DNA of 64,000 bases from Sphingomonas sp. (GTDB lineage: Bacteria; Pseudomonadota; Alphaproteobacteria; Sphingomonadales; Sphingomonadaceae): positions 35,152-99,151 of the forward strand of contig NZ_DASTMA010000009.1 in the NCBI RefSeq assembly GCF_035714405.1, read 5' to 3'. The notes beneath the pieces were generated by a model that saw only the letters and a list, made by a program, of their open reading frames with translations, was not told where the DNA came from and made no database searches. The translations under genes and the position numbers were made by a program. Numbering within the stretch: the first letter of the stretch is position 1; each line of letters starts with the position of its first letter. Positions 41,817 through 47,880 of the stretch are shown here, piece after piece.

Positions 41817-42551
41817 TTATTCGGGCGCCGGGATCCAGTTCGTCTCGATCACGCCATGCCGGTCGACGAAGCCGGTCATCGCGATCATGTCGCGCTCTGC
41901 CAGTAGGCGTACACGGCGGCCGCTGCGTTCGATCAGCCCACGCTTTTCCATATCACCAAAGGTACGGCTGACATGGACCTTGGTCAGTCCCACTGCATCG
42001 CCGATGTCCTGTTGGGTCAGCGCGAGATCAAAGGAATCGACGACCCCGCCGGCGGTCACCCGCAGCCGCGCGATGATGTCGAGCAAGAGCAGGCTCAGCC
42101 GCTCGATCGCACCCATCCGGCCAATCGAGGTCAGCCGGTCGCCCATCGCGACGTAATCGGCGGCCGAGATCGCGTAGAGCGCTCCGGCGAGCCGGGGCTG
42201 GGCCTTGAAGATGCGCCCCAGCGCCCCCTTGCTAAGTTCGGATACGATACAGTCGCTGACCGCCGTCACGGTGTTCGTCGCTAGACTCCAAGCGATGCTC
42301 GAGGTACCGACGAGGTCGCCGGCATAGTGGAAACCGACTATCTGCCGGCTGCCGTTGACCAGGCGACGTGCGGAGTGAACCCAGCCCTGCTGGACGATGT
42401 AGAGCATGTCGTTCGGGCGATCCTGCTCCATCAGCAGCTGGCCGGGAGTGAAGCGCATCTCGCGCCGTTCCGCCCAATCGAGGGTATCGCGCTCTTCAGC
42501 GGTCATCGCCAGGTGCTGTTCCAGCCGGGTCACCAGCGCGCTACGCCGCAT
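41817..42551 (-). CDS. Crp/Fnr family transcriptional regulator
   Basis: Cyclic-nucleotide-binding fold; HTH LTQQDIGDAVGLTKVHVSRT. Confidence 0.9.
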   Translation of the reverse strand: MRRSALVTRLEQHLAMTAEERDTLDWAERREMRFTPGQLLMEQDRPNDMLYIVQQGWVHSARRLVNGSRQIVGFHYAGDLVGTSSIAWSLATNTVTAVSDCIVSELSKGALGRIFKAQPRLAGALYAISAADYVAMGDRLTSIGRMGAIERLSLLLLDIIARLRVTAGGVVDSFDLALTQQDIGDAVGLTKVHVSRTFGDMEKRGLIERSGRRVRLLAERDMIAMTGFVDRHGVIETNWIPAPE

Positions 42552-42625: not shown

Positions 42626-43747
42626 TCATTCGGCCGCCAGGGCGAGGCCCTCGTCGACGTCGGCCTCCTCGTCGGCGGCGACGCCCTGCTCCAGCCGCGT
42701 CTCGTCGGCGGCGAGCTGGGCCGCGTCCTTGTCGGTGATGCCGAAGCGCGCCGCGACGTCGGGGGCGAAGCGGAGCAGGTCGGGGCGCAGTCGCAGCAGC
42801 GACAGGTCCTTGGACTTGCCCTCCATCATCACGTCGAAGTCGAGGCCATCCGCCATGCGCATGAAGGTCGCGAACTCGAACGGGTTGGTGAAGTCGGAAT
42901 GGCCGGTCCAGATCGGCGGCAGCAGCACGGTCTTGATGCGGGCGGTGGGTTTGACGGGTGCCTTGAGGAGCTCGCCCTTCTTGGGTTTGCCGGTGATCTT
43001 GCGCTTCACCTCGCGAAGCTCGGTGCGGGGGCTGGAGAAGTGGATCTTCGGGCGAACCCCGATCGGCCAACTCGCGACGAACCTCTCCAGCGTGCTACGC
43101 ATATCGAGCCGCTCGGGGTTGAGGCACCAGAAATGCTGGTAGTCGAAAATCAGCCGCACACCGGTGCGCTCGTGAATCCACAGCACGTCGGCCGCGGAGA
43201 AGCGGATGTCGTCATTCTCGAGGACGAGGCGGCGACGGACATGGTCGGGGCATTGTTCGAACCCCTCGATCCAGCGGGCGCGGCTGGCGTCCTTGTCGTC
43301 ATAGACGCCGCCGACATGCGTCACCATCACCGCCTCGTCATCCAGCGCCATGCGGTCGAGCATCTCGGCCTGGCTCGCCAAGTCCCAGATCGACTTGCGC
43401 GTCAGCTCCGGGTTGGGCGAGTTGAGCAGGACATATTGGGAGGGGTGGAAGGACAGGCGGATGTCGAGCGCCCTGGCCTTGGCGCCGAAGGCGCGCAGCT
43501 CTGCGTCTGAGTCAGCGACCATCGAATGGAACTGCGGCATGTCGGGATGGGTCGCGTAGGGGGCGATGTCCGACGACAGGCGGTACATGTCGAGCTTGTG
43601 CGCGGCGAGATAGTCGAGCACCGGATCGAGCAGCTCGAGCGAGCATTTGAGGTGCGGGTTCTTCTGCCAGCGGCGCGTGTCCTGCGTCTTTAGACCGGCT
43701 TGCCCCATCACCTTGACGGGAAAGCCCAAGCGGAGCGGTCGGGTCAT
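42626..43747 (-). CDS. uvsE: UV DNA damage endonuclease (UVDE)
   Basis: YRLSSD, LSFHPSQY, THVGG, LENDD, FDYQH, KIHFSS, GHSD, MMEGKSKD metal ligands. Confidence 0.9.
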   Translation of the reverse strand: MTRPLRLGFPVKVMGQAGLKTQDTRRWQKNPHLKCSLELLDPVLDYLAAHKLDMYRLSSDIAPYATHPDMPQFHSMVADSDAELRAFGAKARALDIRLSFHPSQYVLLNSPNPELTRKSIWDLASQAEMLDRMALDDEAVMVTHVGGVYDDKDASRARWIEGFEQCPDHVRRRLVLENDDIRFSAADVLWIHERTGVRLIFDYQHFWCLNPERLDMRSTLERFVASWPIGVRPKIHFSSPRTELREVKRKITGKPKKGELLKAPVKPTARIKTVLLPPIWTGHSDFTNPFEFATFMRMADGLDFDVMMEGKSKDLSLLRLRPDLLRFAPDVAARFGITDKDAAQLAADETRLEQGVAADEEADVDEGLALAAE

Positions 43748-44805
43748 GCGGGTACCTGTTGTTCGGGAAAGCCGAGCGCGGTGACGAACGCGTTCCAGTC
43801 GGCGGGGCGCAGCGCGCCGCCGGTCGCCTGGGCGTGGCCGTTGCCATAACGTGAGTCGGCGCCGGGCGGGCGATGGTCGGCGAGGAAGTCGACCAGGTTC
43901 TGCCCCCGCGCGGAGCGGGCGGCGAAGTGGACCCAACCGGGATTGTAGCCGGTGTTGGCGGCCAGCACGATCTTGTCCTTCAATCGTCCGCGCCACTGCT
44001 GGGCAATGAGCGGATGGATCTGCTGTTCGGCATGGAAGCGGATCAACGCCACGTCGCCGCGTACGGTGGGAGGCACACGGCGGGCGGCTTCGACCGCCTG
44101 GCGCACCTCGATCTTGGCGGCGACGAGCGCGTCGCTTTCCGGGCTCCGCTGTTTGGTGATCGCCTTTGGCCCGTCGCTGGTCATCAGCAGGTGCAGCGCC
44201 GGGCTGGCGTCGGCGGACGCGGTACGGCGCGGCGCGTTGACCAGGCTGACCGCATCGCGCAGCGCGGTCTTGCCCCAGCGCGCCTGCGCCTGCGCGAGCT
44301 CGGGGAAGCCGGCCTCGTCGGCCATGTCGCCGATCAGGCCCAGTGCGGCGAGCCAGAGCAGATCGGCCTGATCACCGAGCGCCGCGCACGCCCACCAGGC
44401 GAGAAGCGCGGAGCTCGGCTCGGGCGTCAGACCGTTGCCGCTGATCGTCGTCGCGTCGGGTGGCGTGCCGGTGGGGAGGTGATGGTCGATGACGATCGTC
44501 GGCACTCCCGGCAGGACGGCCTCGGCGCGCGTACCGAGGTCGGCGACGATCAGCCCCGCGGGCGTCCCGAGCGTTGCGGCGAAGGGCCGGTCCCAAGGTG
44601 CCTCACCTTTGCCGACGATGCGCGGCTCCGCCTGCCAACCCGCGGCGCGAAGCGCGCGGACGAGGATCGCAATGGCGGACAGGCCGTCGGCGTCGAAATG
44701 GCCCAGCACCAGCACCGGGCGCTCGCGATCGAAGCCGCCTAGCGCCGCGGTGAACGCGGCACGGGCATCTTCGCGCGGAGTGTCGTGGGAAAGCGCGCCG
44801 ATCAC
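43744..44805 (-). CDS. DHH/DHHA1 phosphoesterase (short RecJ/NrnA-like nuclease)
   Basis: GHFDADG, ADLG, IDHH, IGD, C-terminal FAARS..GNGHAQATG; ATGA-coupled to uvsE. Confidence 0.85.
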   Translation of the reverse strand: MIGALSHDTPREDARAAFTAALGGFDRERPVLVLGHFDADGLSAIAILVRALRAAGWQAEPRIVGKGEAPWDRPFAATLGTPAGLIVADLGTRAEAVLPGVPTIVIDHHLPTGTPPDATTISGNGLTPEPSSALLAWWACAALGDQADLLWLAALGLIGDMADEAGFPELAQAQARWGKTALRDAVSLVNAPRRTASADASPALHLLMTSDGPKAITKQRSPESDALVAAKIEVRQAVEAARRVPPTVRGDVALIRFHAEQQIHPLIAQQWRGRLKDKIVLAANTGYNPGWVHFAARSARGQNLVDFLADHRPPGADSRYGNGHAQATGGALRPADWNAFVTALGFPEQQVPA

Positions 44806-44813
44806 CCCCGCTC

Positions 44814-44838
44814 AACGAGCCGGAGTGATCGGGGCTCC
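44814..44838 (-). promoter_or_regulatory. Putative sigma-EcfG promoter of DHH-uvsE
   Basis: GGAGC-N16-CGTT (one mismatch), 8 nt upstream of the GTG. Confidence 0.45.
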
Positions 44839-45261: not shown

Positions 45262-46275
45262 TTACCGGCCTGCCAGAACCGACTCGTATAGCGCCAGATA
45301 CTCCGTCGTCATCCGTTCGACGCCGAACCTGCGCATAGCCGTGTCCCGGCAAGCAGCGCGGTCGATCTCGCCCACACGATCGATCGCAGCGACCGCTTCG
45401 TCGAAGCCGTCGACCAGGAAGCCGTTGACGCCATGGTCGATCAACTCCGGCATCGAGCCGCGATTGTACGCGATCACCGGTGTGCCGCAGGCCATCGCCT
45501 CGACGACCGACAGGCCGAACGGCTCGTCAAAGGCGATGAGGTGGAGCAACGCCTTGGCCGATCCCAGCGTACGCGCGCGATCTATGCCGCCGACAATCCC
45601 CAGGTGGCGGATGCGGTCGCCGTCGACATGTGGCGCGACCTCGCCATGGTGATAGCCCTCGTCCTGCACCAGCCCGGCCATGACCAGCCTGTGGTCGGTG
45701 GCCTGCGCCGCCCGGATCGCTTCGCCCGCGCCCTTGTCGGGGTGGATGCGGCCGAAGAACAGCAATTCGTCGCTGCCTGCCGCATCGAAGGGGAAGTCGT
45801 CGAGGCGGATGCCATGGTGGATGGTCGCGGCATAGGTCAGGTCCGGATGCCGGTCCGCGTCGCTGATCGCGACATAGTGTACGCGGTCGTCATACGCTCG
45901 ATAGGCGGGCAGAATGCGCTCGGACGAGAAGCCGTGGATGGTCGTTACCACAGGCGTGTCGACAAGGCGCGAAAAGGCGAGCGGCACGAAATCGGCCTGG
46001 TTGTGGATCAGGTCGAACTCGCCCGCGCGTTCGAAGACGTTGGCAACGTGCAGCGCCTCCCAGACCTTAGCGTCGATCGAAGGATCTTCGGAATAGGCAC
46101 GGGGAGCGACGCCCGCGAGCGTACCGGCGGTGTGCGAATCCAGGGTGGCGAACAGCGTCACGTCGATGCCGCGCGCGACCATGCCCTCGGTCAGCAGGCT
46201 GGTGACCAGCTCCCACGGACCATAGCCGTCCGGCGGAGTGCGCCAAGAGATGGGGGCGAGCATCGCGATCTTCAC
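45262..46275 (-). CDS. Glycosyltransferase family 4
   Basis: TPPDGYGPWE, FFGRIHPDKG, EPFGLSVVEAMACGTPV. Confidence 0.93.
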   Translation of the reverse strand: MKIAMLAPISWRTPPDGYGPWELVTSLLTEGMVARGIDVTLFATLDSHTAGTLAGVAPRAYSEDPSIDAKVWEALHVANVFERAGEFDLIHNQADFVPLAFSRLVDTPVVTTIHGFSSERILPAYRAYDDRVHYVAISDADRHPDLTYAATIHHGIRLDDFPFDAAGSDELLFFGRIHPDKGAGEAIRAAQATDHRLVMAGLVQDEGYHHGEVAPHVDGDRIRHLGIVGGIDRARTLGSAKALLHLIAFDEPFGLSVVEAMACGTPVIAYNRGSMPELIDHGVNGFLVDGFDEAVAAIDRVGEIDRAACRDTAMRRFGVERMTTEYLALYESVLAGR

Positions 46276-46320
46276 AGGGGTGGCGTGTAGGCGGTCGATC
46301 GCGCGCTGCCCACCCCGAAG

Positions 46321-47880
46321 CTACTGAGCGAGGATCAAGCCCTCGTCCGGGCGGAGGACGCCGGTTTCGGCGTTTGTCAGCGTGGACAGCAGCACCCTGC
46401 CCTTGCCCGGCAGCGGCCGCGGATGCGGGCCAAGGTTGACCGCCACGAGCACGCGCTCGTCGCCGTGACGGCGTTCGTAGGCGATGACGTCGTCAGCCGC
46501 TTCGACCAGCGTCAGGCTGCCGACCGACAAGGCGGCGCTGCCGCGTCTCAGCCTCAACAGCGCACGGTAAAGGGTAAGCATCGAGCCGGGATCGCCATCC
46601 TGCGCGGCGACGTTGCGGCTCGGCCAATCTGGATGCAGCGGCAGCCAGGGGTGGGCGCTCGAGAAGCCGGCATGGGCCGAACCTTCCCATGCCATCGGTG
46701 TGCGCGACGGATCGCGGCCAAGGCCAATGCCAGGCTGACGCAGCTCGCGCGGGTCCTGCACCCGATCGGACGACACCTCGACCAGCCCGATGCCGAGTTC
46801 GTCACCCTGATAAAGCGTGGGTGTGCCGCGCAGCGTCAGCAGCAGCATCGCCGCGACCCGGGCCTGCCCCTCGCCGACGCGACCGGCGATGCGCGGGGCG
46901 TCGTGGCTGCCGATCACCCAATTGGGCCAGCCATGCGATGGGATCGAGGCCTCATAGTCGGCGATGACCTGGCGCAGCACCGCCGCATTCCACGGGTTCT
47001 CCATCAGCGCGAAATTGAACGGCAGGTGCACCTCCGGACGGTCGGGCGTTCCGTACCATTGCGCCAGCCGGTCGTTGGGAAGGAAGATCTCGCCGATCAG
47101 CGCGCGGTCACCGTAGCCGTCCGCCAAGGCCCGGAACTCGGCAGCGATCGCGTGCGCCTCCGGCTGGTCGGTGGAGTGGCGCTGGAGCACGCGATCACGC
47201 TCGTTCATCCCGACGCGCCAGACGGGGTTGAGGGGGTTGTCGGGTAGGCCCTCCGCCTTGACGATGTGCCAGAGCACGTCGATCCGGAACCCGTCGACGC
47301 CGCGGTCGAACCAGAAGCGCAGCACATCGGTCATCGCCGCGCGCAGCTCGGGATTGCGCCAGTTGAGGTCCGGCTGCTGCGGCAGGAAGGCGTGGAGGTA
47401 GCATTGACCCGTCGCCTCGTCCCACTCCCAAGCGGAGCCGCCGAAGTCGCTGATCCAGTTGTTGGGCGGGCCGCCATCGGGTGCCGGATCGCGCCAGATG
47501 TACCAATCGCGCTTCGGGCTGTGGCGCGACGATCGGCTCTCGACGAACCAGGGATGCCGGTCCGACGAATGGTTGGGGACGAAATCGAGCAGCAGCTTCA
47601 GTCCGGCCGCATGGACCTTGGCGATCAGCCGGTCGAAATCCGCCAATGTGCCGAACAGCGGCGCGACGCCGCAGTAATCGGCCACGTCATAGCCGAAATC
47701 GGCCATCGGCGAGGGGAAAATCGGCGACAGCCAGATCGCGTCCACGCCCAAGGCGGCGATGTAGTCCACCCGCGCGGTGATGCCGGGGAGATCGCCGACG
47801 CCGTCGCCGTCGCTGTCCTGGAAGGAGCGCGGATAGACCTGGTAGACGACGCCGCGCTCCCACCACGGCCGTTCGCTCAT
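46321..47880 (-). CDS. GH13 alpha-glucosidase/oligo-1,6-glucosidase-like
   Basis: YQVYPRSFQDSDGDGVGDL, DFVPNH, GFRIDV, GE, GSHD, YQGDELG. Confidence 0.93.
   Translation of the reverse strand: MSERPWWERGVVYQVYPRSFQDSDGDGVGDLPGITARVDYIAALGVDAIWLSPIFPSPMADFGYDVADYCGVAPLFGTLADFDRLIAKVHAAGLKLLLDFVPNHSSDRHPWFVESRSSRHSPKRDWYIWRDPAPDGGPPNNWISDFGGSAWEWDEATGQCYLHAFLPQQPDLNWRNPELRAAMTDVLRFWFDRGVDGFRIDVLWHIVKAEGLPDNPLNPVWRVGMNERDRVLQRHSTDQPEAHAIAAEFRALADGYGDRALIGEIFLPNDRLAQWYGTPDRPEVHLPFNFALMENPWNAAVLRQVIADYEASIPSHGWPNWVIGSHDAPRIAGRVGEGQARVAAMLLLTLRGTPTLYQGDELGIGLVEVSSDRVQDPRELRQPGIGLGRDPSRTPMAWEGSAHAGFSSAHPWLPLHPDWPSRNVAAQDGDPGSMLTLYRALLRLRRGSAALSVGSLTLVEAADDVIAYERRHGDERVLVAVNLGPHPRPLPGKGRVLLSTLTNAETGVLRPDEGLILAQ

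What the first reader, a model, noticed from the sequence alone, without database searches (positions are those of the whole stretch)
42626..44838. DHH nuclease coupled to UvsE: candidate two-gene alternative excision repair module
The DHH gene stop overlaps the uvsE ATG, all visible catalytic motifs are intact, and an EcfG-like promoter lies 8 nt before the GTG (near-leaderless). UVDE is known to nick 5' of photoproducts and needs a downstream nuclease (Rad2/FEN1 in fission yeast). RecJ-type DHH enzymes are 5'-3' exonucleases. Inference: this short 353-aa DHH protein is a dedicated UvsE partner under general-stress rather than SOS control.
Basis: partly seen in the sequence, partly recalled or inferred. 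Interest (0 to 1): 0.65.

Follow-up and report, generated by a model that had tools for sequence, protein, structure and literature searches.

The report
RecJ-like nuclease paired with UV endonuclease
A short, uncharacterised RecJ-like nuclease gene is welded to the UV-damage endonuclease gene uvsE behind a stress-type promoter, and the pairing recurs across distant bacteria, so it is a strong candidate for the missing second step of bacterial UvsE repair.

Summary
On the minus strand, a 353-aa DHH/DHHA1 gene (43744-44805) ends in an ATGA overlap with a 373-aa uvsE (42626-43747). GGAGC-N16-CGTT (44814-44838) sits 8 nt before the GTG start.

The pairing is not chance:
- Of 78 assessable loci from several alphaproteobacterial families, 62 have uvsE directly downstream.
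- In 13 of the 14 unlinked cases the genome carries the same uvsE clade elsewhere.
- More distant homologues (35-58% identity, one from Terriglobales) also sit beside uvdE, some in divergent orientation.
- The genome has a second pair on another contig.

The same DHH subfamily is fused to an ATP-dependent DNA ligase, next to an Fpg/Nei glycosylase, in cyanobacteria. That ties the family to DNA nick processing.

By fold and profile the protein is closest to RecJ cores, but it is not a RecJ orthologue. A canonical RecJ is encoded elsewhere.

The promoter element holds its position in 52 of 82 loci, and also precedes uvsE genes that stand alone. No SOS box was found.

Best reading: a stress-induced, two-gene alternative excision repair operon. 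The nuclease chemistry and the EcfG dependence are inferred, not shown. No description of the link was found in the searchable literature.

The parts
44814..44838 (-). ECF-type (EcfG-like) promoter GGAGC-N16-CGTT. The -10 box ends 8 nt before the GTG start, which predicts a leaderless or nearly leaderless mRNA.
   Evidence: The sequence was read directly. Boxes and spacing are conserved in 52 of 82 homologous loci while the spacer sequence varies. Shuffles give 1.8 loci with the motif, against 54 observed. The element matches the published EcfG motif, and Sphingomonas melonis has EcfG targets with the motif 2-10 nt from the CDS (PMC6599016).
43744..44805 (-). Gene for a 353-aa DHH/DHHA1 phosphoesterase. 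It belongs to an unnamed RecJ-related subfamily and is a RecJ-core-like nuclease without the OB-fold and C-terminal domains.
   Evidence: Translation. The Pfam and NCBIfam hits are weak and match RecJ models only. The AF2 model has pLDDT 92.6. The best Foldseek matches are RecJ and RecJ-Cdc45 cores, at TMq about 0.7. The profile against PDB gives RecJ at 1e-16. Catalytic residues are conserved.
43744..43747 (-). ATGA overlap of the DHH stop codon with the uvsE start codon, implying translational coupling.
   Evidence: The sequence was read directly. The same 4-nt overlap occurs in the second pair of this genome, in Pelagibacterium and in metagenome locus L090. tblastn gaps of 0-24 nt are seen in most loci.
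42626..43747 (-). uvsE, the UV DNA damage endonuclease (UVDE/UvdE family), 373 aa.
   Evidence: PF03851 scores 178 bits. TIGR00629 scores 156.9 bits, above its cut-off. phmmer finds the solved UVDE structures 3tc3 (3e-33) and 2j6v (2e-29).

Best explanation
This is a two-gene, translationally coupled operon for UvsE-initiated (alternative) excision repair. It is probably transcribed as a leaderless mRNA from a general-stress (EcfG-type ECF sigma) promoter.

Proposed mechanism:
1. UvsE nicks DNA immediately 5' of UV photoproducts and some other lesions. This is the known activity of the family. The nick has a 3'-OH on one side and a 5'-phosphate that carries the lesion on the other.
2. The DHH protein is a stripped-down RecJ-like two-metal nuclease. 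It works on that 5' end, most likely degrading the lesion-bearing strand 5'->3' over a short patch, either directly or after strand displacement.
3. A polymerase fills the gap and a ligase seals it.

Shown here:
- the gene anatomy;
- intact catalytic motifs;
- a RecJ-like fold;
- deep conservation of the DHH-uvsE link and of the promoter;
- fusion of the same DHH subfamily to a DNA ligase elsewhere.

Inferred:
- the substrate;
- the polarity;
- physical cooperation with UvsE;
- which sigma factor reads the promoter.
For: **Linkage in the alphaproteobacterial clade**
- 62 of 78 assessable genome loci have an intact uvsE directly downstream on the same strand. The taxa are Sphingomonas, Methylobacterium, Paracoccus, Acetobacteraceae, Beijerinckiaceae, Rubellimicrobium and Croceibacterium.
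- Nothing else in the flanks is conserved.
- 13 of the 14 unlinked genomes carry the same uvsE clade elsewhere.

**Rarity and co-occurrence**
- Among 150 other genomes of the same family, 4 have the DHH gene and 12 have uvsE. All 4 DHH genomes have uvsE, hypergeometric p about 2e-5.
- Among 400 genomes sampled across the class, 0 have the DHH gene and 4 have uvsE.

**Distant relatives**
- Homologues at 48-58% identity sit beside uvdE in L089 (Terriglobales), L090 and L092. In L091 uvdE is divergent.
- In a further clade uvdE lies upstream and divergent: L100, L102, L105-107, L110.

**This genome**
- A second pair lies on contig C15. Both of its proteins are closest to the same foreign loci (L008, L011), so the pair moves as a unit.

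**Tie to DNA**
- About 55 protein clusters in cyanobacteria fuse an ATP-dependent DNA ligase to this DHH subfamily.
- An Fpg/Nei glycosylase gene overlaps the fusion's start in L087. The gene order Nei, ligase, DHH recurs in L128-type loci.
- One in-frame DHH-UvdE fusion was seen, P0160.

**Enzyme type**
- Only RecJ models hit the family, in 37 of 48 members; none is over its cut-off.
- The profile against PDB ranks RecJ proteins first, at 1e-16 to 1e-11.
- Foldseek TMq is about 0.7 to RecJ cores, against 0.4-0.55 to NrnA/Pde.
- In the HMMER alignment to Thermus RecJ, K66 aligns with the 5'-phosphate-pocket Arg and W71 with the stacking Tyr (residue roles from PMC4846377).

**Regulation**
- The motif [GGAAC, at most 1 mismatch]-N16/17-CGTT-N7-10-start is present in 52 of 82 loci.
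- uvsE genes that stand alone carry the same element 8 nt before the ATG: L180, L184, L186, L187, L191.
- There are no SOS boxes.
- In Erythrobacter the general stress response activates photolyases (bioRxiv 10.1101/641647).
Against: - No biochemical or expression data were available.
- Six Sphingomonadaceae genomes have a uvsE 73-87% identical to this one and no DHH gene. UvsE therefore works without it.
- The Deinococcus-like clade of the DHH family is mostly not next to uvdE.
- RecJ-type enzymes need single-stranded 5' tails. A bulky dimer at the 5' end may not fit a mononucleotide pocket.
- Ser371 of the Deinococcus RecJ phosphate pocket is Ala here. This was placed by motif only.
- A pAp phosphatase is also a good structural match, TMq 0.69.
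- The -35 box in this window is GGAGC, not GGAAC.
- GTG starts are less favourable for leaderless translation.
Confidence: 0.62

Rival explanations
1. The DHH protein is a repair partner, but it cleans DNA ends instead of degrading a strand. It would act as a phosphatase or phosphodiesterase that removes a 3'-phosphate, a 3'-blocking group or a 5'-dRP-like remnant at nicks and gaps, and would not remove the lesion-bearing strand.
For: - The sister clade sits with, or is fused to, an Fpg/Nei glycosylase and an ATP-dependent ligase. From general knowledge, Nei-type beta,delta-elimination leaves a 3'-phosphate that must be removed before ligation.
- A pAp (3'-phosphate) phosphatase is among the best structural and profile matches: 8a8k, TMq 0.69, profile E 8e-10.
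Against: - From knowledge of the family, UvsE leaves a clean 3'-OH, so a 3'-phosphatase would have nothing to do in the UvsE module.
- RecJ nucleases match better than the phosphatase.
- Counterparts of the RecJ 5'-phosphate-pocket residues are present.
Confidence: 0.2
2. The DHH protein is a housekeeping or stress-related small-nucleotide hydrolase: a nanoRNase, a pAp phosphatase or a cyclic-dinucleotide phosphodiesterase. On this view it merely shares a stress-induced operon with uvsE and takes no part in repair.
For: - Short DHH/DHHA1 proteins of about 320-350 aa are typically NrnA- or Pde-type.
- Databases name the homologues only 'phosphoesterase'.
- The Pfam DHH hit is below its cut-off.
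Against: - The link to uvdE survives rearrangement: it is seen in co-directional, divergent and upstream layouts, and across phyla.
- The gene co-occurs with uvsE when the two are unlinked.
- The family is fused to a DNA ligase.
- No NrnA, GdpP or PPX model hits any of 48 members.
- NrnA-type structures match worse, TMq 0.4-0.55.
Confidence: 0.07
3. The pair is a mobile cassette whose conservation reflects horizontal spread, or an anti-phage defence module, and does not reflect cooperation in chromosomal DNA repair.
For: - The distribution is patchy and the identity is high across families.
- The genome holds two differently related copies.
- Copies lie on megaplasmids.
- A genome of the same genus lacks both genes.
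Against: - Neither protein hits any PADLOC defence model.
- No conserved integrase or transposase lies in the flanks.
- UvsE is a well-characterised repair enzyme.
- Horizontal transfer of a useful repair cassette is compatible with the best explanation.
Confidence: 0.04

Closest known systems
Bacterial RecJ (single-stranded-DNA-specific 5'-3' exonuclease; Thermus 1ir6/2zxo, Deinococcus 5f55)
   Same: - DHH and DHHA1 domains, with all metal-binding motifs present.
- These are the best sequence, profile and fold matches.
- Counterparts of the 5'-phosphate-pocket Arg (K66), the stacking Tyr (W71), the motif VI Arg (R297) and the motif VII His (H324).
   Different: - It has 353 aa against about 570-700.
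- It lacks the OB-fold and C-terminal domains.
- It scores 44.5 bits against the TIGR00644 cut-off of 396.9.
- A true RecJ is encoded elsewhere in the genome.
- It has its own signatures, such as NA[AP]RR and GH..ATGG.
UVDE-dependent excision repair (UVER / alternative excision repair) of Schizosaccharomyces pombe, with Rad2/FEN1 downstream
   Same: Same logic: a UVDE-family nick 5' of the lesion, followed by a 5' nuclease that removes the damaged strand.
   Different: - The proposed nuclease here is a DHH/RecJ-type enzyme, not a FEN1-type flap endonuclease.
- The two genes form one operon.
- Nothing has been tested biochemically. The comparison rests on general knowledge of the yeast pathway.
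Bacterial UvsE of Deinococcus radiodurans and Bacillus subtilis (YwjD), and the solved UVDEs 2j6v and 3tc3
   Same: The window's UvsE is a member of this family, above the curated cut-offs.
   Different: - The model UvsE genes are not described with a dedicated partner nuclease.
- This UvsE has a Lys-rich insertion and an acidic C-terminal tail: Pfam covers only residues 42-246 of 373.
EcfG (general stress response) regulon promoters of Alphaproteobacteria
   Same: - GGAAC-N16-17-CGTT type boxes.
- Sphingomonas melonis has EcfG-dependent genes with the motif 2-10 nt from the CDS, and accepts GGACC, GGAGC and GCAAC as -35 variants (PMC6599016).
- The palindromic GGAAC-N17-GTTCC form is known.
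   Different: - This window has one mismatch in the -35 box (GGAGC).
- Dependence on EcfG has not been tested.
- uvsE and this DHH gene do not appear in the main text of the two regulon papers read, by word search.
Nuclease-ligase fusions and LigD-type multidomain repair ligases
   Same: The cyanobacterial ligase-DHH fusions place this DHH subfamily in the same design: an end-processing nuclease joined to an ATP-dependent ligase.
   Different: - The nuclease module is DHH, where known examples use a LigD phosphoesterase or a metallo-beta-lactamase (RMMBL) domain (PMC10140301).
- No ligase is linked to the pair in the window.

Membership tests
DHH/DHHA1 phosphoesterase superfamily | DHH-domain motifs I-IV (DxD, D, DHH, D) that bind two metal ions | tested here: met
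   H36/D38/D40, D89, D107-H108-H109 and D160 are invariant in 20 close homologues. D38, D40, D89, H108, H109 and D160 are at least 90% conserved, and D107 is invariant, in 48 diverse members. The Pfam DHH score is 27.0 bits, just under the 28.1 cut-off.
DHH/DHHA1 phosphoesterase superfamily | C-terminal DHHA1 domain with a GGGH-type motif | tested here: met
   G321-N-G323-H324 followed by AQATGG is conserved. The AF2 model has an alpha/beta C-terminal domain, and its matches to RecJ and pAp-phosphatase structures run the length of the query at TMq about 0.7. The Pfam DHHA1 model itself does not hit this protein. It hits a Deinococcus homologue weakly.
RecJ (TIGR00644 / NF008290 equivalogs) | Score over the curated cut-off across the full-length model | tested here: not met
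   The score is 44.5 bits against a cut-off of 396.9, and only residues 25-163 match. The genuine RecJ of the genome scores 496 bits, at C11:93375-95015.
RecJ (TIGR00644 / NF008290 equivalogs) | OB-fold and C-terminal domains that give processivity and SSB binding | tested here: not met
   The protein ends after the DHHA1 domain at 353 aa. The target-normalised TM-score to full-length RecJ is only 0.36-0.41.
RecJ (TIGR00644 / NF008290 equivalogs) | Terminal 5'-phosphate-binding pocket (Deinococcus RecJ R109, R280, S371, R373) that sets 5'-3' polarity | tested here: inconclusive
   K66 aligns with the Arg of the HRLEEGYG motif and W71 with the Tyr. R297 and H324 were placed by motif, and the Ser position is Ala. 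No structural superposition at residue level was available. Residue roles come from PMC4846377.
NrnA / nanoRNase / pAp phosphatase / GdpP-type DHH enzymes | Match to the curated models, or the best structural match is of this type | tested here: not met
   No such NCBIfam model hits any of 48 members. NrnA/Pde structures give TMq 0.41-0.55, below RecJ. One archaeal pAp phosphatase (8a8k) does match well (TMq 0.69, profile E 8e-10), so a phosphatase-like activity is not excluded.
UvsE / UVDE (PF03851, TIGR00629) | Score over the curated cut-offs | tested here: met
   PF03851 scores 178 bits against a cut-off of 24. TIGR00629 scores 156.9 bits against 124.45.
UvsE / UVDE (PF03851, TIGR00629) | TIM-barrel metal-binding His, Asp and Glu residues | tested here: inconclusive
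   The alignment to 3tc3 shows the conserved blocks fHPsqY, tHVGg, lvlENDd, iFDyqH and dvMmEgKsK. Mapping them to the Thermus residue numbers is from memory, not from a tool.
EcfG-dependent promoter | GGAAC-N16-17-CGTT boxes upstream of the gene | tested here: met
   GGAGC-N16-CGTT at 44814-44838(-), one mismatch. Position is conserved in 52 of 82 loci. The element is compatible with the S. melonis motif set.
EcfG-dependent promoter | Transcription depends on sigma EcfG / PhyR, and the start site lies just downstream of the -10 box | not testable with these tools
SOS (LexA) regulon of Alphaproteobacteria | GTTC-N7-GTTC box in the promoter region | tested here: not met
   The 270 nt upstream of 82 loci contain no GTTC-N7-GTTC and one GAAC-N7-GAAC. 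There is none in the window.

The most novel reading that the evidence does not exclude
The DHH protein is a lesion-adapted 5' exonuclease. It would take the UvsE nick directly and excise the photoproduct, for example as a dimer-containing di- or oligonucleotide, with no need for a flap endonuclease. That would make a minimal two-enzyme excision system. General-stress signalling would switch it on in UV- and desiccation-exposed bacteria of leaf surfaces, lichens, air and deserts. The same enzyme family, fused to a ligase beside Nei, would form a second self-contained nick-repair module.
Probability: 0.25. Interest if true: 0.8.

Novelty: new variant of a known kind. Interest (0 to 1): 0.68.

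Why it matters
UvsE/UVDE makes the first cut of an excision pathway that backs up nucleotide excision repair in radiation- and desiccation-tolerant bacteria. In bacteria it is not settled which enzyme removes the damaged strand after that cut.

A conserved, co-regulated partner gene is a concrete candidate, and two purified proteins and three deletion mutants would be enough to test it.

The work also does three other things:
- It defines an unnamed RecJ-related subfamily, which no Pfam or NCBIfam model covers.
- It links that subfamily to a second repair module, Nei-ligase-DHH.
- It adds lesion excision to the repair functions (photolyases, Ku) already reported under the alphaproteobacterial general stress response.

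Tried and rejected
- **Empty site:** I looked for an empty insertion site in the same-genus genome that lacks the pair. Synteny (alpha-glucosidase, GT4) breaks right after GT4, so no clean empty site could be shown.
- **Other neighbours:** clustering the ORFs of 80 loci gave only shadow ORFs of the two genes, and no third partner.
- **Leaderless EcfG genes genome-wide:** the scan for motif-N5-12-start sites was too noisy at 68% GC to be useful. Of its 40 hits many are chance ORFs.
- **Trees:** careful maximum-likelihood trees did not finish in the time allowed. I used correlations of pairwise identity instead.
- **Distant-clade scan:** a 33-sequence alignment had no stretch conserved enough to scan metagenomes with. 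A 10-sequence subset worked.
- **Terminator:** there is no clear intrinsic terminator after uvsE, so read-through into the Crp-like gene cannot be excluded.
- **Defence system:** there are no PADLOC hits.
- **SOS control:** no SOS boxes were found.
- **Contamination:** the second pair as a contaminant contig is unlikely. C15 has the same GC content and tetranucleotide profile as the rest of the genome.
- **Literature:** searches for UvsE/UVDE with DHH/RecJ, with EcfG/PhyR, and for ligase-DHH fusions found no paper that describes the link.
Full report
**Observation**

Both genes lie on the minus strand.
- The DHH ORF runs from the GTG at 44805 to the TGA at 43744-43746 and encodes 353 aa.
- uvsE runs from the ATG at 43747 to 42626 and encodes 373 aa.
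- The plus strand reads TCAT at 43744-43747. On the coding strand this is ATGA, so the stop and the start share 4 nt.

Family matches:
- UvsE is an unambiguous family member. PF03851 scores 178 bits. TIGR00629 scores 156.9 bits against a cut-off of 124.45. phmmer finds the solved UVDEs 3tc3 (3e-33) and 2j6v (2e-29).
- The DHH protein scores 27.0 bits on Pfam DHH, against a cut-off of 28.1. Otherwise it touches only RecJ models, weakly and only over its N-terminal domain.

The catalytic residues are conserved. D38, D40, D89, D107-H108-H109, D160, R297 and G323-H324 are invariant or nearly so in 20 close and 48 diverse homologues. Homologues start M-I-G-x-L at the same place, which fixes the GTG start.

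GGAGC-N16-CGTT lies at 44814-44838(-), 8 nt before the GTG.

**Is the pairing conserved?**

A scan of one genome per species returned 80 loci that encode close relatives of the DHH protein (58-81% identity). They come from Sphingomonas, Methylobacterium, Paracoccus, Acetobacteraceae (Roseomonas, Craurococcus), Beijerinckiaceae (Lichenihabitans, Lichenibacterium), Rubellimicrobium, Croceibacterium and Allosphingosinicella. Many are isolates or MAGs from lichens, leaves, air or desert soil.

Of the 78 loci with enough downstream sequence:
- 62 have a full uvsE directly downstream on the same strand, with tblastn gaps of 0-92 nt, mostly 0-24.
- 2 have a decayed uvsE there: L029 holds a remnant and L045 is interrupted by stop codons.
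- 14 have none within 6 kb. In 13 of those 14 genomes a uvsE of the same clade (about 80% identity) lies elsewhere. The fourteenth has only a distant UvdE-family gene.

Nothing else in the flanks is conserved.

Both genes are rare:
- Among 150 other genomes of the same family, 4 carry the DHH gene and 12 carry uvsE. All 4 DHH genomes carry uvsE, hypergeometric p about 2e-5.
- Among 400 genomes spread over the class, 0 carry the DHH gene and 4 carry uvsE.

The dependence is one-sided. The DHH gene almost never occurs without UvsE, whereas six Sphingomonadaceae genomes have this uvsE clade and no DHH gene.

**Deeper conservation**

An exhaustive HMMER search found a small family: 649 cluster representatives at E<=1e-3 and 106 at E<=1e-30.

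Four more distant members (48-58% identity) with usable contigs all sit beside uvdE:
- L089, from a Terriglobales MAG.
- L090, with a 4-nt overlap.
- L092.
- L091, where uvdE is transcribed divergently.

A metagenome scan seeded with a clade only about 35-40% identical to the window protein showed four patterns:
- uvdE upstream and divergent in L100, L102, L105-107 and L110, or upstream on the same strand in L103.
- uvdE downstream in the alphaproteobacterial clade. The HMM search found it there in 28 loci, including contigs that break off inside the gene.
- No linkage in most members of a Deinococcus-like clade.
- A fourth clade with a different partner set, described under 'A second module'.

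A link that survives changes of orientation and of phylum argues for function. Inheritance of one ancestral operon would not explain it.

The pair also lies on megaplasmids of Paracoccus, Roseomonas and Pelagibacterium. In Pelagibacterium it is annotated phosphoesterase/uvsE, with a 4-nt overlap.

**This genome**

- A second pair lies on contig C15 (DHH 74% and UvsE 87% identical to the first pair). It also has a 4-nt overlap and the same promoter layout, in an unrelated neighbourhood with KatG and a LysR regulator.
- Both proteins of the second pair are closer to the same foreign loci (L008, L011) than to the first pair, so pairs travel as units.
- C15 has the same composition as the rest of the assembly.
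- The genome also encodes a canonical RecJ, UvrA and a weak photolyase-family hit. The pair is therefore an addition to standard repair and does not replace it.

**What kind of enzyme is the DHH protein?**

- The AF2 model is confident: pLDDT 92.6, pTM 0.90.
- Its best PDB matches are archaeal RecJ-Cdc45 and bacterial RecJ cores, at query-normalised TM about 0.7. NrnA/Pde-type enzymes reach 0.4-0.55. One archaeal pAp phosphatase reaches 0.69.
- A family profile ranks ten RecJ sequences first (1.6e-16 to 1.9e-11), then the pAp phosphatase (8e-10), then NrnA-like phosphodiesterases (2e-5 and weaker).
- Across 48 members, only RecJ-type NCBIfam models hit, and none reaches its cut-off.
- In the HMMER alignment to Thermus RecJ, K66 aligns with the Arg and W71 with the Tyr of the HRLEEGYG segment. 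In Deinococcus RecJ the corresponding residues (R109, Y114) bind the terminal 5'-phosphate and stack on the base (PMC4846377).
- R297 and H324 correspond by motif to R373 and H397.
- The protein lacks the OB-fold and C-terminal domains of RecJ.

It is therefore a RecJ-core-like enzyme of its own subfamily and is not a RecJ orthologue.

**A second module ties the family to DNA**

- One family representative (P0138) is a 919-aa fusion of a complete ATP-dependent DNA ligase with this DHH domain at 39% identity.
- About 55 such clusters exist in filamentous cyanobacteria, including Microcoleus, Trichocoleus, Nostocales, Calothrix and Scytonema.
- In Trichocoleus an Fpg/Nei glycosylase gene overlaps the start of the fusion.
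- In a high-GC lineage the genes run Fpg/Nei, ligase, DHH.
- A Nostocales genome with the fusion also has an unlinked uvdE.
- Spore-photoproduct-lyase-family genes lie next to the DHH-uvdE pair in L090 and near the fusion in L085.

UvsE and Nei both open the DNA backbone at a lesion. A DHH nuclease that handles the resulting end is the simplest common denominator.

**Regulation**

- The element [GGAAC with at most one mismatch]-N16/17-CGTT, followed by 7-10 nt and the start codon, is present in 52 of 82 DHH genes, with unrelated spacer sequences.
- Shuffled upstream regions give 1.8 loci with the motif, against 54 observed.
- The unlinked Sphingomonas group has a palindromic variant (TGAACC-N17-GGTTC). 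It resembles the GGAAC-N17-GTTCC form described for Erythrobacter.
- uvsE genes that stand alone carry the same element 8 nt before their ATG: L180, L184, L186, L187 and L191, with looser variants in others. The two genes therefore share this control even when apart.
- The motif equals the published EcfG consensus. In Sphingomonas melonis several EcfG-dependent genes have it 2-10 nt from the CDS, and -35 variants such as GGACC and GGAGC occur among them (PMC6599016).
- No alphaproteobacterial SOS box lies upstream.

**Mechanism proposed**

1. General-stress signalling switches on a leaderless bicistronic mRNA.
2. Translational coupling yields both proteins.
3. UvsE nicks 5' of the photoproduct.
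4. The DHH nuclease binds the 5'-phosphate end and removes a short stretch that includes the lesion.
5. A polymerase and a ligase finish the repair.

Steps 3-5 rest on knowledge of the families and on genomic association. The main rival is that the DHH enzyme cleans ends, as a 3'-phosphatase or diesterase, and does not resect. That would suit the Nei-ligase module better than the UvsE module.

**Comparison and novelty**

The logic matches the UVDE pathway of fission yeast, with a RecJ-type enzyme in place of the FEN1-type nuclease. The protein fails the membership tests for RecJ proper and for NrnA-type enzymes. No curated family covers it, and the literature searches found no description of a DHH-UvdE link. 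Two earlier first-stage notes from other genomes recorded the same coupling, unchecked.

I rate it a new variant of a known kind. The comparative support is solid and there is no experimental evidence.

Noticed in passing
L087:5042-8973; L085:6001-8868; L128:1258-5008: There is a second module built on the same DHH subfamily: Fpg/Nei glycosylase, then ATP-dependent DNA ligase, then DHH. Ligase and DHH are fused (about 950 aa) in filamentous cyanobacteria. They are adjacent genes in high-GC metagenome loci whose DUF1559 neighbour hints at Planctomycetota.
   Followed up: partly
G000 contig C15:144172-146390 (L093:8170-10394): The genome has a second DHH-uvsE pair (74% and 87% identical to the first). 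It has the same 4-nt overlap and the promoter GGACC-N16-CGTT-N8-ATG, and sits next to KatG, a LysR regulator and polysaccharide genes. Both of its proteins are nearest to the same foreign loci (L008, L011).
   Followed up: yes
L180, L184, L186, L187, L191 (upstream of uvsE): uvsE genes that stand alone in Sphingomonadaceae carry the same GGAxC-N16/17-CGTT element 8 nt before their ATG as the DHH genes do. This implies a shared regulon even when the two genes are unlinked.
   Followed up: partly
L090:6413-7393; L085:3746-4861: Spore-photoproduct-lyase-family genes (PF20903) lie next to a DHH-uvdE pair and near a ligase-DHH fusion. This looks like a small cluster of UV-repair genes.
   Followed up: no
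L089:3330-9080: A Terriglobales locus has an ECF sigma factor plus two small ORFs, divergent from DHH, uvdE, a radical-SAM/HhH protein and a DUF4130-UDG protein. This may be a larger stress-controlled repair island.
   Followed up: no
L029 and L045 (Methylobacterium); G057:C1:1752044-1753087: There are signs of decay. A uvsE remnant and a uvsE interrupted by stop codons each lie next to an intact DHH gene. In one Sphingomonadaceae genome where the two genes lie 325 kb apart, the DHH gene has an in-frame TGA.
   Followed up: partly
L097:5001-7514; L098:4914-5990: Megaplasmids of Deinococcus aetherius and D. taeanensis carry a 43%-identical DHH homologue with no adjacent uvsE. In D. aetherius a 414-aa protein with no Pfam match follows it.
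   Followed up: partly
window 45262-47880 (-): The upstream alpha-glucosidase and GT4 glycosyltransferase resemble the EcfG-dependent glycosidase/glycosyltransferase pair of Sphingomonas melonis, as that paper describes it. No EcfG-type motif was found directly upstream of them here.
   Followed up: partly
window 41973-42551 (-): A Crp/FixK-family regulator lies 74 nt downstream of uvsE on the same strand, with no clear terminator between them. It could be co-transcribed. A Crp-like gene belongs to the S. melonis EcfG regulon.
   Followed up: no
P0160 (574 aa, metagenome protein): A single in-frame fusion joins the C-terminal half of the DHH protein to UvdE. It could be a real fusion or a sequencing frameshift.
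   Followed up: no
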